Assembly (NCBI GenBank): GCA_021798095.1
Contig: JAJZYL010000001.1
Location: forward strand, 1-26,609
Length of the DNA: 26,609 bases
Source of the DNA: an archaeon
GTDB taxonomy: Archaea; Thermoproteota; Nitrososphaeria; Conexivisphaerales; UBA164
Reading direction: 5' to 3'
Part shown: in pieces, positions 847 through 2,053 of the stretch
Layout of the letters: each line of letters begins with the position of its first letter
Position numbering within the stretch: the first letter of the stretch is position 1
Position numbers and translations under genes: made by a program
The notes under the pieces: generated by a model
What the model saw: only the letters and a program-made list of their open reading frames with translations
Database searches by the model: none
Told to the model about the DNA's origin: nothing

Positions 847-1461
847 TTGGCTCCCAGATATGATATATCTCAGCTGGCTGTTGGGAATATGGGCAATTTC
901 ACATACCTCATCTCTTCAGGTGGAAAAGCGCTTGTAATAGACGCGAGCTTCGGTGGAAAGGAAGTATTAAAAATGTTGTCCGAACGCGGCCTTAGGCTTA
1001 GGTATATCCTTTCAACGCACAACCACTTCGATCACAATATGGACAACACATATCTCAGACTGGAGACTGGCGCAGAAGTCGTAGCTCACAAAACTTCACC
1101 GATAGGGAAGGATATTTCCATAGAGGATGGTGATGAAGTGAAGGTTGGCTCCATGACCATAGTAGCCTTGCATACCCCCGGCCATACCCCGGATTCCATA
1201 TGTTATCGCCTTGAGGGGAATGTATTTACCGGTGATACCCTTTTCGTGGGAACGTGCGGGAGGGTCGACCTCCCTGGTGGAAACGCCGGCGAACTATTCC
1301 AAAGTATGAGAAGGCTCTGCAATCTTGAGAGATCGACCGTCGTATTTCCCGGGCACGATTATGGTGTCACAAAGACCTCTACAATCGGCAGGGAATGCAC
1401 GTCCAACCCTGCAATGACCGCTCGCGATATTTCTGAATTCTTGGCATATATTAAAAGTTGA
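847..1461 (+). CDS. MBL-fold metallo-hydrolase (glyoxalase II / ETHE1-like)
   Basis: THNHFDH (HxHxDH), HTPGH, TGDTLF, GRVDLPGG and PGHDY motifs; TTG start. Confidence 0.88.
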   Translation: MAPRYDISQLAVGNMGNFTYLISSGGKALVIDASFGGKEVLKMLSERGLRLRYILSTHNHFDHNMDNTYLRLETGAEVVAHKTSPIGKDISIEDGDEVKVGSMTIVALHTPGHTPDSICYRLEGNVFTGDTLFVGTCGRVDLPGGNAGELFQSMRRLCNLERSTVVFPGHDYGVTKTSTIGRECTSNPAMTARDISEFLAYIKS

Positions 1462-1559
1462 GCCCATTGTGGGAAAACCGAGCTGGGCTAACCTACTTAC
1501 CATCATTATCTTCTATCAAACATCAAGGTTTATCATAAAAGCGAGCTGGAAGGGGGCTA

Positions 1560-1567
1560 TTTAAATA
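1560..1567 (+). promoter_or_regulatory. Candidate TATA box for the tnpB-end relic / tRNA-Ser transcript
   Basis: TTTAAATA ends 23 nt before the ATG at 1590, the spacing expected for a leaderless archaeal transcript. Confidence 0.5.
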
Positions 1568-1589
1568 CTCAAAGAGTCAATGGTATAGC

Positions 1590-1726
1590 ATGCTTTCAGC
1601 GTTCAGGCTCTACGATGTTAACCGTGTGTCGTTGAAACAGGAAACAAGTTCCCTGCTGGTCGACGAACCCGCAAGGGCAATAAACTTAAGGGAAGCCCAC
1701 AGGCTTTAGCCGTGGGAGGATGTCAC
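1590..1726 (+). mobile_element. Minimal IS200/IS605-family relic: tnpB 3' end / omega(re)RNA-like region with right-end hairpin
   Basis: Ends in GAAGCCCACAGGCTTTAGCCGTGGGAGGATGTCAC (hairpin CCCAC-A-GGC/TTTA/GCC-GTGGG plus terminal TCAC), the typical IS605/IS1341 right end; the 39-aa frame 1590-1709 contains SLKQE...EAH, resembling TnpB C-termini. Confidence 0.75.
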
Positions 1727-1753
1727 TAGCCCTCAAGTGGAGATGTGGGTTGA

Positions 1754-1839
1754 GCCGGGGTACCCTAGCCTGGTAGGGGGCAGGCCTTGAGAGCCTGTGG
1801 CCTTTTCTGGCCTCGTGGGTTCGAATCCCACTCCCGGCG
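1754..1839 (+). tRNA. tRNA-Ser(TGA), intronless, CCA not encoded
   Basis: Cloverleaf: GCCGGGG/TCCCGGC acceptor, CAGGC-CTTGAGA-GCCTG anticodon arm (TGA 1788-1790), long variable arm GGCC-TTTTCT-GGCC, GTGGG-TTCGAAT-CCCAC T arm. Confidence 0.97.
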
Positions 1840-2053
1840 CCTCAACTACTGGAACGCCCATCCCAGTTGTACCTTATGGATTGGAACCCATATGAATATA
1901 TCACGATAAGCCGGTTATAGCTGGCGGTTTGATATCAATGAGGGGCATGTGTGGTCTACCCCTTATCTGCAAGTGATGGCCCTGCGACTTCCCCCGACTC
2001 AATGGAAAGGGTATCAGACAGATTTATCTATCGCTGAAAAGCTCTAATCTGAT

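What the first reader, a model, noticed from the sequence alone, without database searches (positions are those of the whole stretch)
1560..1839. Promoter-driven minimal TnpB omega-RNA-like unit fused to the 5' leader of tRNA-Ser
Seen: TATA box (1560-1567), then ~137 nt ending in an almost intact IS605-type right end (TCAC at 1723-1726), then 27 nt, then tRNA-Ser at 1754. There is no TATA-like box 25-30 nt upstream of the tRNA. Known: TnpB guide RNAs span roughly the last 150 nt of the element plus ~16-20 nt of flank, and RNase P cuts at tRNA 5' ends. Inference: almost all of tnpB was deleted, leaving a scaffold of about guide-RNA size. A single transcript would be cut by RNase P into mature tRNA plus an orphan guide RNA (spacer TAGCCCTCAAGTGGAGATGT...), a natural analogue of engineered tRNA-gRNA cassettes that could load a TnpB encoded elsewhere. 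The first codons (MLSAFRLY) may be a remnant of a TnpB N-terminus (MLxAxxFRLYP). The AT-rich 1678-1690 stretch is a possible alternative tRNA promoter.
Basis: partly seen in the sequence, partly recalled or inferred. Interest (0 to 1): 0.78.

Follow-up and report, generated by a model that had tools for sequence, protein, structure and literature searches.

The report
Immobilised TnpB mini-transposon upstream of tRNA-Ser
A 190-bp gene-less remnant of an RNA-guided-nuclease (TnpB) transposon, which still carries the transposon's promoter and guide-RNA end, sits 27 bp upstream of an archaeal tRNA-Ser gene; it most likely now serves as that tRNA's promoter and long leader, not as a working guide RNA.

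Summary
Window 1537-1726 is a miniature, protein-less derivative (MITE/PATE) of a TnpB-only IS200/IS605 element. It consists of a left-end remnant, the tnpB TATA box (1560-1567), the first 8 tnpB codons, and then, in frame, the last 113 nt of the guide-RNA scaffold and right end (…TCAC, 1723-1726). tRNA-Ser(UGA) follows 27 nt later.

A second copy with the same deletion junction and a near-intact left-end hairpin lies elsewhere in a sister species. The unit was therefore mobile. The tRNA-linked copy has lost 39 nt, including that hairpin, and is fixed at the same site in all three species of the genus.

Against a neutral divergence of about 20%, the promoter/start block (2/55) and the right-end hairpin plus spacer (1/62) are strongly conserved. 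The middle of the scaffold drifts at the neutral rate (15/78), and several substitutions break pairs that are conserved across the family.

No other TATA box lies upstream of the tRNA. My reading is that an immobilised transposon relic was co-opted as the promoter and 5' leader of an essential tRNA. An orphan guide RNA would be a by-product and is unlikely (about 10%) to be a selected function. The arrangement is a one-off: none of 27 other copies has it. There is no transcript evidence.

The parts
847..1461 (+). Upstream MBL-fold hydrolase gene on the same strand as the tRNA. It is a possible additional source of read-through transcription.
   Evidence: ORF list. Orthologous and 89% identical in G001/G002. 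By direct reading there is no run of 5 or more T between its stop codon and the tRNA.
1530..1536 (+). Left flank TTATCAT (TTATCAC in the sister species). This is the conserved insertion-site/TAM-like motif. Together with the preceding GGT it forms a TATA-like box that would have lain at -37 to -28 of the tRNA before the insertion.
   Evidence: The same TTATCAC flanks the full-length tnpB copy C22 and the mobile MITE copy G002:C32. It resembles the tRNA-Met promoter GGTTTTAATCAT in this genome. The promoter role is an inference.
1537..1558 (+). Left-end remnant. The 39 nt that carry the left-end hairpin (CCCACACCGTTCACGGGTGGG) in C22 and G002:C32 are missing here, between direct repeats AAAGCGAGCTGGAA.
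   Evidence: Alignment A3. The same deletion is present in the G001 and G002 orthologues (A1).
1560..1567 (+). The archaeal TATA box of the tnpB promoter (TTTAAATA). The predicted start of transcription is about 1588-1590.
   Evidence: The octamer is invariant in three species. The spacing from box to ATG is 21-23 nt in four tnpB subfamily copies. It matches the box type upstream of most tRNA genes of this genome. The TSS is inferred from promoter geometry and has not been mapped.
1590..1613 (+). First 8 codons of tnpB (MLSAFRLY). The deletion junction lies at 1613/1614.
   Evidence: 93% identity to C22, which continues as TnpB. G002:C32 has the identical junction.
1590..1709 (+). 39-codon relic ORF: tnpB codons 1-8 fused in frame to the tnpB C-terminal tail. 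Its stop codon TAG lies in the right-end hairpin loop. It is not a conserved protein.
   Evidence: By my own translation of the A1 alignment the frame is open in G001/G002, but 15 nt changes between window and G001 give about 11 of 31 amino-acid changes. No Pfam hit.
1614..1726 (+). The 3'-terminal 113 nt of the omega-RNA scaffold, equal to the transposon right end. It has a local hairpin (1625-1634/1638-1646), a long-range helix (1649-1660/1683-1694), a small CCC/GGG hairpin (1668-1670/1676-1678) and a terminal hairpin (1696-1716). It ends in TCAC (1723-1726).
   Evidence: CM R1 gives 111 bits. Family covariation: 86% of cells paired against 40-55% in slid controls, and 62 double-change cells against 31±4 in shuffles. 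In the window copy, 3 pairs of the family structure are broken and 1 is compensated.
1678..1690 (+). G000-specific AT-rich patch (CAATAAACTTAAG) created by a cluster of 5 substitutions. It damages the long-range helix and the family-conserved GGGATAGCC motif. It is a weak candidate for a new promoter.
   Evidence: It is not conserved in G001/G002 or in paralogues.
1727..1753 (+). 27-nt flank between the right end and the tRNA. It occupies the guide position of an omega-RNA and forms the last part of the pre-tRNA leader.
   Evidence: 0/27 differences in three species (P about 0.001-0.003 at the neutral rate). No other match in the genome or in viral contigs.
1754..1841 (+). tRNA-Ser(UGA), the only tRNA with this anticodon found in the assembly.
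   Evidence: It is identical in G001/G002.

Best explanation
Window 1537-1726 is a PATE/MITE-type, protein-less derivative of a TnpB-only IS200/IS605 element.

Origin. It transposed as a unit of about 229 bp, inserting 3' of TTATCAC. The insertion fell between a TATA-like box and tRNA-Ser(UGA), 27 bp upstream of the tRNA. In the ancestor of the genus it then lost 39 bp, including its left-end hairpin, by deletion between short direct repeats. That loss made excision by TnpA impossible and fixed the element in place.

Current role. The element's own tnpB promoter is the only canonical TATA box upstream of the tRNA (1560-1567, predicted start near 1590). Transcription from it runs through the 137-nt relic and the 27-nt flank into the tRNA. 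Read-through from the displaced old box or from the upstream gene may add to this. 5' maturation at 1753/1754 then releases the tRNA.

The leader RNA. The released leader of about 164 nt has the form of a truncated omega-RNA plus a 27-nt guide. It is a by-product, not a guide maintained by selection.

Shown: identity, mobility, immobilisation, orthologous fixation, and the pattern of sequence constraint. Inferred: promoter use, the joint transcript and the processing.
For: Identity:
- The 5' block is 93% identical to the promoter and N-terminus of a real tnpB (C22).
- The 3' block is 94% identical to a right end (C81) and belongs to a structured family of about 100 copies.
- Y1 TnpA genes are present in the genome.

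Mobility: G002:C32 has the same junction, a near-intact left-end hairpin and unrelated flanks.

Immobilisation and fixation: the 39-nt hairpin deletion is shared by the orthologous loci of three species.

Constraint, G000 versus G001, against a neutral proxy of 0.19-0.22:
- 1559-1613: 2/55 (P 1e-4 to 9e-4).
- 1692-1753: 1/62 (P 4e-6 to 3e-5).
- 1614-1691: 15/78, which is neutral.

Promoter logic:
- About 60% of this genome's tRNA genes have a TTTAAATA-type box ending 22-28 nt before the tRNA. tRNA-Ser(UGA) has none there.
- The AT-rich patch is not conserved.
- By direct reading there is no T-run terminator between 1568 and 1753.
- This tRNA is the only UGA-anticodon tRNA-Ser found, so it must be expressed.
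- In the sister genus the same tRNA abuts the stop codon of a gene, so long co-transcribed precursors are normal for it.

By-product status of the leader:
- Pair-breaking substitutions occur in the scaffold.
- There is no target elsewhere.
- No cognate tnpB was found in G001/G002.
Against: - There is no transcript evidence. Three metatranscriptomes from the source study are too shallow, and no RNA contig covers 1590-1753.
- The near-perfect conservation of the right-end hairpin and spacer is not specifically predicted by a pure promoter-donor model. It could instead mark a cryptic proximal promoter or a retained TnpB-binding module.
- The conservation rests on essentially two independent lineages, because G001 and G002 are about 97% identical.
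- 8-9 of the 28 tRNA genes in this genome also lack a proximal TATA box, so its absence here is not exceptional.
- RNase P RNA was not detected in any of the three genomes of the genus, although it is found in 33 of 33 other genomes of the order. A diverged Rpp29 is present. The processing enzyme is therefore assumed.
Confidence: 0.58

Rival explanations
1. The promoter-driven leader is a functional orphan omega-RNA. RNase P cleavage at the tRNA 5' end defines its 3' end. A TnpB encoded elsewhere loads it and targets TTATCAC followed by TAGCCCTCAAGTGGAG…
For: - The retained 113 nt equals the size of the minimal ISDra2 scaffold (116 nt; PMC10097598).
- The protein-proximal 3' hairpin, the TCAC end and the whole guide position are 98-100% conserved.
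- The promoter is conserved.
- A cognate tnpB 5' half with a 93% identical promoter and N-terminus exists in G000.
- In G002 all 7 lineage-specific changes in the 113-nt unit (6 in 1614-1691 and 1 in the terminal hairpin) are compatible with the structure. Two of them restore or create pairs.
- PATEs that encode omega-RNAs used in trans are known (PMC10055086).
Against: - The scaffold body evolves at the neutral rate, with 7 pair-breaking changes across the lineages. Some of these hit family-invariant motifs.
- The left-end hairpin is lost, so no excision is possible. The donor-joint target never forms.
- The guide has no other match in the genome or in viral contigs.
- The only TnpB found in G001 belongs to another subfamily, and G002 has only fragments. 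All three MAGs are 73-82% complete.
- The 5' 60 nt or so of scaffold kept by the other solo copies is absent here.
- None of 27 other copies precedes a tRNA.
Confidence: 0.12
2. The tRNA is transcribed from a cryptic proximal promoter. This lies either inside the conserved right-end hairpin and spacer (1692-1753) or, in G000, at the new AT-rich patch 1678-1690. The tnpB promoter is irrelevant to the tRNA.
For: - The 62 nt just upstream of the tRNA are the most conserved non-genic stretch of the locus (1/62), as expected for core promoter and initiation sequences.
- The hairpin loop CTTTAG lies 43-47 nt before the tRNA, within the range of box positions seen for other tRNAs.
- G000 has a cluster of 5 changes to A/T at 1678-1690.
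Against: - 1692-1753 contains no AT-rich octamer. Its best candidate shares only TTTA with the TTTAAATA consensus (direct reading).
- The AT-rich patch is absent from G001/G002, which have the same tRNA arrangement.
- This reading leaves the significant conservation of 1559-1613 unexplained.
Confidence: 0.2
3. The element is an inert relic. The tRNA is expressed only by read-through from the upstream hydrolase gene or the displaced old TATA-like box. The conserved blocks reflect gene conversion from active copies or chance.
For: - The upstream gene is on the same strand, with no obvious terminator before the tRNA (direct reading).
- The sister genus co-transcribes this tRNA with a protein-coding gene.
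- The right-end hairpin is identical in many copies, even in Micrarchaeota MAGs, so gene conversion could keep it uniform.
Against: - The unique 27-nt spacer cannot be maintained by gene conversion, yet it shows 0/27 changes.
- The promoter block differs among paralogues (C22, G002:C32) but is invariant among orthologues.
- The combined probabilities are 1e-4 or lower.
Confidence: 0.08

Closest known systems
PATEs / IS200-IS605-derived MITEs that carry an omega-RNA (for example the gene-less ISGst-like elements of Geobacillus stearothermophilus; Meers et al. 2023, PMC10055086)
   Same: - Protein-less derivative that keeps transposon ends and the guide-RNA-coding right end.
- Multiple copies: about 100 scaffold copies in 9 genomes of the order.
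- Mobilisable in trans by Y1 TnpA.
- Flanked by a conserved motif, with no target duplication.
   Different: - It is archaeal (Nitrososphaeria).
- This copy keeps the tnpB promoter and 8 codons fused directly to the last 113 nt.
- It has lost its left-end hairpin.
- It is fixed at an orthologous site in three species.
- It abuts a tRNA gene in the transcribed orientation.
ISDra2 TnpB omega-RNA (cryo-EM structures; Nakagawa et al. 2023, PMC10097598)
   Same: - The scaffold overlaps the 3' end of tnpB and the right end.
- The guide is the flank immediately after the right end.
- The essential scaffold is about 116 nt, against 113 nt retained here.
- The family has conserved helices with covariation.
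   Different: - There is no detectable sequence similarity, and no Rfam family matches.
- The pseudoknot could not be identified here.
- No adjacent tnpB.
- The scaffold body at this locus is not under detectable constraint.
Engineered polycistronic tRNA-gRNA cassettes (endogenous RNase P/RNase Z release guide RNAs)
   Same: The geometry is the same. A guide-RNA-like unit is directly followed by a tRNA, whose 5' processing would define the guide's 3' end.
   Different: - This is a natural, single, accidental insertion, with 27 nt in the guide position.
- There is no evidence that the released RNA is used.
- RNase P RNA was not detectable in this genus.
Promoter donation by insertion sequences (outward or read-through transcription from IS elements that activates neighbouring genes)
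   Same: A mobile element inserted between a gene and its promoter supplies transcription of that gene. The element's promoter is under purifying selection after fixation.
   Different: - The promoter is the element's own internal tnpB promoter, brought close to the exit by deletion of tnpB.
- The downstream gene is a tRNA, and the relic becomes its leader.
- This role is inferred, not measured.
TldR-type domesticated TnpB systems with fixed guide RNAs (Wiegand et al., PMC10705468)
   Same: An immobilised transposon-derived guide-RNA locus is retained vertically.
   Different: - There is no associated TnpB-like gene at the locus.
- No target was identified.
- The scaffold is decaying.

Membership tests
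IS200/IS605-derived MITE (PATE) of a TnpB-only element | Sequence homology of its ends to a full-length element that encodes TnpB | tested here: met
   1535-1610 is 92-93% identical to C22, which continues as a TnpB N-terminus (HTH_OrfB_IS605, E 7e-9). 1629-1727 is 94% identical to the C81 right end. Related right ends lie directly after tnpB 3' ends in C83 and C27.
IS200/IS605-derived MITE (PATE) of a TnpB-only element | Subterminal imperfect hairpins at both the left and right ends | tested here: not met
   The right-end hairpin is present (1696-1716). The left-end hairpin is absent from the window copy and from the G001/G002 orthologues. It is present in the sister copy G002:C32 and in C22. 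This copy is therefore a defective, immobilised member.
IS200/IS605-derived MITE (PATE) of a TnpB-only element | Insertion 3' of a conserved short motif, without target-site duplication | tested here: met
   TTATCAC (TTATCAT in the window) flanks the left end at three independent sites. The right flanks are unrelated.
IS200/IS605-derived MITE (PATE) of a TnpB-only element | More than one copy with the same internal structure at unrelated sites (mobility) | tested here: met
   G002:C32 has the same deletion junction and different flanks.
IS200/IS605-derived MITE (PATE) of a TnpB-only element | A Y1 (HUH) TnpA available in trans | tested here: met
   PF01797 hits at E 1e-23 to 1e-25 on C10, C13 and C1. 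Whether that TnpA recognises these ends was not tested.
TnpB omega-RNA (functional guide RNA) | Scaffold encoded by the tnpB 3' end plus the right end, with the guide being the adjacent flank | tested here: met
   The relic ORF reads the tnpB tail frame and stops in the right-end hairpin loop. The 5' parts of the solo copies align to TnpB residues about 286-365. Family homology ends at TCAC.
TnpB omega-RNA (functional guide RNA) | Conserved secondary structure supported by covariation | tested here: inconclusive
   Met for the family: 27 pairs, 86% paired, and 0 of 500 shuffles reach the observed covariation. At this locus the scaffold body drifts at the neutral rate. The window lineage has 3 broken pairs and 1 compensated pair; the three lineages together have 7 pair-breaking changes.
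TnpB omega-RNA (functional guide RNA) | Pseudoknot between the 3' tail and the 5' part of the scaffold | tested here: inconclusive
   An all-against-all covariation scan and inspection showed no convincing partner for GGAUGUCAC.
TnpB omega-RNA (functional guide RNA) | An intact cognate TnpB in the same genome | tested here: inconclusive
   G000 holds only the first 185 codons, at a contig end (C22). Other tnpB fragments belong to other subfamilies. G001 and G002 have none of this subfamily. The MAGs are 73-82% complete.
TnpB omega-RNA (functional guide RNA) | The RNA is expressed, bound by TnpB and directs cleavage next to a TAM | not testable with these tools
   The metatranscriptome contigs do not cover 1590-1753.
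Natural tRNA-gRNA cassette | Guide unit and tRNA on one transcript: no promoter or terminator between them | tested here: inconclusive
   By direct reading there is no TATA-like box and no T-run in 1568-1753, and one search supports this. No RNA evidence exists.
Natural tRNA-gRNA cassette | RNase P available to cut at the tRNA 5' end | tested here: inconclusive
   RF00373 was found in 33 of 33 other genomes of the order but in none of the 3 genomes of this genus. A diverged Rpp29 lies between L29 and S17 in G001. HARP/PIN_5 was not found.
Natural tRNA-gRNA cassette | Recurrence of the arrangement (selection for the cassette as such) | tested here: not met
   None of the 27 other best-scoring family loci has a same-strand tRNA after the right end. 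In G000 it is 1 of 26 copies.

The most novel reading that the evidence does not exclude
The relic is a domesticated guide-RNA gene. The tRNA's 5'-processing enzyme trims its 3' end, and a C22-type TnpB loads the short 113-nt scaffold in trans. The complex would cut conspecific or incoming DNA that carries the uninterrupted site (TTATCAC followed by TAGCCCTCAAG…). It would thereby drive or protect the promoter-replaced tRNA-Ser allele in the population. This would be a natural tRNA-gRNA cassette acting as an allele-drive.
Probability: 0.08. Interest if true: 0.8.

Novelty: new member of a known kind. Interest (0 to 1): 0.4.

Why it matters
If the promoter reading holds, this is a clean, datable archaeal example of a known process. 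A TnpB mini-transposon lands between a promoter and an essential tRNA, loses the hairpin needed for excision, and has its own promoter kept by selection as the tRNA's promoter.

It also shows that omega-RNA-shaped RNAs with a 3' end defined by tRNA processing can arise by accident. That route could yield orphan guides and is relevant to how TnpB guides become domesticated.

In practical terms, the family (about 100 structured copies in nine acid-mine-drainage Nitrososphaeria genomes) offers a compact archaeal scaffold of about 113-175 nt with a TTATCAC-like flank motif. It could be tested once a full-length cognate tnpB is assembled.

Tried and rejected
- Rfam, at gathering and at permissive thresholds: only the tRNA matches.
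- Single-sequence fold of 1585-1753: no more stable than shuffles (z = 0.24).
- RNAalifold on the first mixed alignment found almost nothing. A cleaner 3'-end alignment was needed.
- Search for an empty site. In sister genus g2 the tRNA-Ser(UGA) has a different context, abutting an amidohydrolase-like gene. A metagenome search with the upstream hydrolase found nothing above 43% identity.
- The idea that this family inserts just after TATA boxes, so that downstream genes are read from the element. Only C147 (23 nt to a start codon) and the tRNA locus fit, out of 26 copies. G002:C32 has no downstream ORF. I dropped it as a general rule.
- RNA-seq. Three metatranscriptomes were laid on the region. 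They yielded only short right-end-hairpin contigs from other copies and one contig at 1813-1997. This is uninformative.
- Guide targets: none in the genome with up to 4 mismatches, and none in viral contigs.
- Apparent loss of RNase P in the genus. The Rpp29 Pfam search was negative in all 3 genomes. Synteny then showed a diverged Rpp29 between L29 and S17, so loss is not established. nhmmer with an order-level RNase P RNA profile found nothing in G000. A 41-nt hairpin hit is too short to be the ribozyme.
- Pseudoknot search: inconclusive.
Full report
**1. The observation**

- TTTAAATA is at 1560-1567.
- ATG is at 1590.
- The right end finishes with TCAC at 1723-1726.
- A 27-nt spacer follows (1727-1753).
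- tRNA-Ser(UGA) is at 1754-1841.

The window is contig C45 of a 1.2-Mb, 74%-complete archaeal MAG. Related records are titled Nitrososphaeria/Nitrososphaerota archaeon. The DNA is held by acid-mine-drainage, tailings and sediment metagenomes.

**2. What the element is**

The 5' block (1535-1610) holds the left-end remnant, the TATA box and the codons for MLSAFRLY. It is 92-93% identical to G000:C22:609-536. C22 continues as a genuine TnpB N-terminus, MLSAFRFRLYPSEEQETALKEQ… This matches Pfam HTH_OrfB_IS605 at E 7e-9.

The 3' block (1629-1727) is 94% identical to a right end at the edge of contig C81.

Other IS605 subfamilies in the genome end with the same hairpin module, directly after tnpB 3' ends: …CCCACAAGCTTTAGCTGTGGGAGTATGTCAG. 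Their flanks diverge immediately afterwards.

The genome also holds Y1 TnpA genes and several tnpB fragments.

The ORF at 1590-1709 is therefore an in-frame fusion of tnpB codons 1-8 to the last 31 codons of tnpB. Its stop codon lies in the right-end hairpin loop.

**3. It is a mobile MITE/PATE, and this copy is immobilised**

G002, another species of the genus, carries a second copy at an unrelated site (C32). That copy has the identical deletion junction (…TCTAC|GATGTTAG…). It also has a near-intact left-end hairpin (CCCACACCGTTCACGGGTTGG, one mismatched pair) preceded by TTATCAC.

The same TTATCAC precedes the left end of the full-length C22 copy.

The tRNA-linked copy lacks exactly the 39 nt that contain this hairpin. 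Those 39 nt lie between direct repeats AAAGCGAGCTGGAA.

The orthologous loci of G001 and G002 share that deletion.

I infer the following order of events:
1. A MITE of about 229 bp inserted 3' of TTATCAC, 27 bp upstream of tRNA-Ser.
2. The left-end hairpin was then lost in situ.
3. The three species diverged afterwards.

Before the insertion, the sequence GGTTTATCAC would have ended 27 nt upstream of the tRNA. That spacing is typical of tRNA promoters in this genome, and the sequence resembles the tRNA-Met box GGTTTTAATCAT. The former promoter role of this box is an inference.

**4. The wider family**

The genome has at least 21 copies of the scaffold. A covariance model finds about 100 copies in 9 of the 36 genomes of the order.

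Most copies are solo units. A second subfamily keeps three parts:
- a left end of about 110 nt;
- the tnpB TATA box;
- about 175 nt of the tnpB 3' end plus the right end.

The 5' parts of these solo copies align to TnpB residues about 286-365.

On 31 copies the proposed structure is well supported:
- 86% of cells are paired, against 40-55% when partners are slid;
- there are 62 double-change cells, against 31±4 in shuffles (0 of 500 shuffles reach the observed value);
- three pairs of the long-range helix each show three Watson-Crick pair types.

That helix corresponds to window 1649-1660/1683-1694. It lies outside the TnpA-recognised hairpin, so the family behaves as a structured RNA, as expected of omega-RNA scaffolds.

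Rfam has no matching family.

**5. Constraint at the tRNA locus**

I compared G000 with G001. The neutral proxies are third codon positions of the upstream gene (0.22) and the downstream spacer (0.19).

| Segment | Differences | P at the neutral rate |
|---|---|---|
| 1559-1613 | 2/55 | 1e-4 to 9e-4 |
| 1614-1691 | 15/78 | neutral |
| 1692-1726 | 1/35 | 0.002 to 0.006 |
| 1727-1753 | 0/27 | 0.001 to 0.003 |
| tRNA | 0/88 | not computed |

I polarised the scaffold changes with the paralogue G002:C32.
- The window lineage has one compensatory pair (C·G to U·A, 1660/1683) and three pair-breaking changes (1678, 1684, 1688).
- The G001/G002 stem has two pair-breaking changes.
- G001 has two more pair-breaking changes.
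- G002 has four structure-compatible changes in paired columns and no pair-breaking change.

The window's cluster of five changes at 1678-1688 creates the AT-rich patch and damages the family-conserved GGGATAGCC motif. It is absent from the sister species.

**6. Reading**

The promoter/start block and the 62 nt before the tRNA are under selection. The scaffold body is not demonstrably so.

Several facts point to transcription from about 1590 through the relic into the tRNA.
- The only canonical TATA box upstream of this tRNA gene is the tnpB box. This is the only tRNA-Ser(UGA) found in the assembly, so it is presumably essential.
- There is no T-run terminator in between (direct reading).
- The same tRNA is co-transcribed with a protein-coding gene in the sister genus, where it abuts the stop codon.

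Read-through from the hydrolase gene (847-1461) or from the displaced old box may contribute.

Any such precursor would, after 5' maturation of the tRNA, release an RNA with the shape of a truncated omega-RNA plus a 27-nt guide.

The evidence does not favour a selected guide function.
- The element cannot excise, so its natural target (the donor joint) cannot form.
- The guide has no other match in the genome or in viral contigs.
- No cognate tnpB was found in G001 or G002.
- The arrangement is unique among the sampled copies.

Two points keep the guide reading alive at about 10%:
- the 113-nt size matches the 116-nt minimal ISDra2 scaffold (PMC10097598);
- the hairpin and spacer are strikingly conserved.

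A cryptic proximal promoter is the main alternative explanation for that conservation.

**7. Caveats**

- No RNA evidence could be obtained.
- The conservation rests on two effective lineages.
- All three MAGs of the genus are incomplete.
- The enzyme assumed to cut at 1753/1754 is uncertain. The archaeal RNase P RNA model hits 33 of 33 other genomes of the order but none of the three genomes of this genus. A diverged Rpp29 subunit is nevertheless retained between L29 and S17.

**8. Comparison and novelty**

Gene-less IS200/IS605 derivatives that carry omega-RNAs (PATEs) are described for Geobacillus (PMC10055086). IS-borne promoters that drive neighbouring genes are a classic theme.

Three literature searches found no description of a natural omega-RNA/tRNA fusion.

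I did not test it.

I file this as a new (archaeal, immobilised, tRNA-linked) member of a known kind, of moderate interest.

Noticed in passing
G000, G001, G002 whole genomes; G001:C2 (L226:968-1168; L228:1501-1541): The archaeal RNase P RNA model (RF00373) hits 33 of 33 other genomes of the order at E 1e-47 to 1e-71, including MAGs only 55-68% complete. It hits none of the three genomes of the window's genus. nhmmer with an order-level profile also finds nothing in G000. HARP/PIN_5 is absent. Pfam misses Rpp29, but a diverged 66-aa orthologue sits between L29 and S17. A 41-nt hairpin with a CR-V-like ACAUAAUGAAGCU motif, about 5.4 kb from the r-protein operon, is the only weak hit; G002:C30 has a similar weak hit (E 4) at a matching distance. 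The RNase P RNA of this genus is either very divergent or reduced, or it was left unassembled three times.
   Followed up: partly
L102:201-233, L104:5135-5167, L105:5043-5075 (Candidatus Micrarchaeota MAGs): The terminal 33 nt or more of the right end (GAAGCCCACAGGCTTTAGCCGTGGGAGGATGTC) is 100% identical in DPANN (Micrarchaeota) MAGs. In L102 it follows a tnpB 3' end; in L104 and L105 no tnpB precedes it, and in all three the upstream sequence is unrelated. The TnpA-recognised end module is therefore shared between elements of two archaeal phyla.
   Followed up: partly
G000: C121:6939-7112(-), C121:456-628(+), C35, C162, C87, C152, C63, C25, C174 and others: A second solo subfamily has a left end of about 110 nt, a TTTAAATA box, and about 175 nt of tnpB 3' end plus right end. 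There is no tnpB. Its left flanks are TTATAA, TTATCA or TTTAA. In these copies the tnpB promoter directly drives a full-size scaffold.
   Followed up: partly
G000:C147:5602-5716(+): The right end of a solo copy stops 23 nt before the start codon of a same-strand ORF of at least 492 aa (translation MKTVLNYTELKN…; no family search was run). The left flank is AATTATAAG. This is the same 'relic between a TATA-like box and a gene start' geometry as at the tRNA.
   Followed up: no
G000:C151:5941-6047(+) and C121:514-628(+): Two other scaffold copies lie convergent to tRNA genes. One is 10 nt from the 3' end of tRNA-Arg(TCG). The other is about 125 nt from tRNA-Ser(GCU), and this arrangement is orthologous in G001 (L214). 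With 3 of 26 copies near tRNAs, there is no significant excess for intergenic space.
   Followed up: partly
L036, L038, L040, L042 (sister genus g2): tRNA-Ser(UGA) begins 0-2 nt after the stop codon of a 454-aa amidohydrolase-like gene. A conserved CTTTTAAGTAGG lies inside the coding end, about 30-40 nt upstream. The tRNA is therefore either co-transcribed with the gene or driven by an intragenic promoter.
   Followed up: no
window 1691-1725, RNA runs X18 and X20: Metatranscriptome contigs from the source study contain the right-end hairpin joined to other upstream sequences. Three X18 pieces stop at 1725, the penultimate base of the right end; the X20 piece runs to 1727. This hints that right-end RNAs of other copies are expressed. 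DNA carry-over cannot be excluded.
   Followed up: no
G001 and G002 whole genomes: G001 holds 15 scaffold copies and G002 holds 26. G001 has only one detectable tnpB, a 414-aa gene of a different subfamily on C16. G002 has only fragments. Solo guide-type units far outnumber nuclease genes, although the MAGs are incomplete.
   Followed up: partly
The scaffold model R1 (E ≤ 1e-5) and the right-end motif search did not pick them up. If they are real, they belong to other subfamilies.
   Followed up: partly
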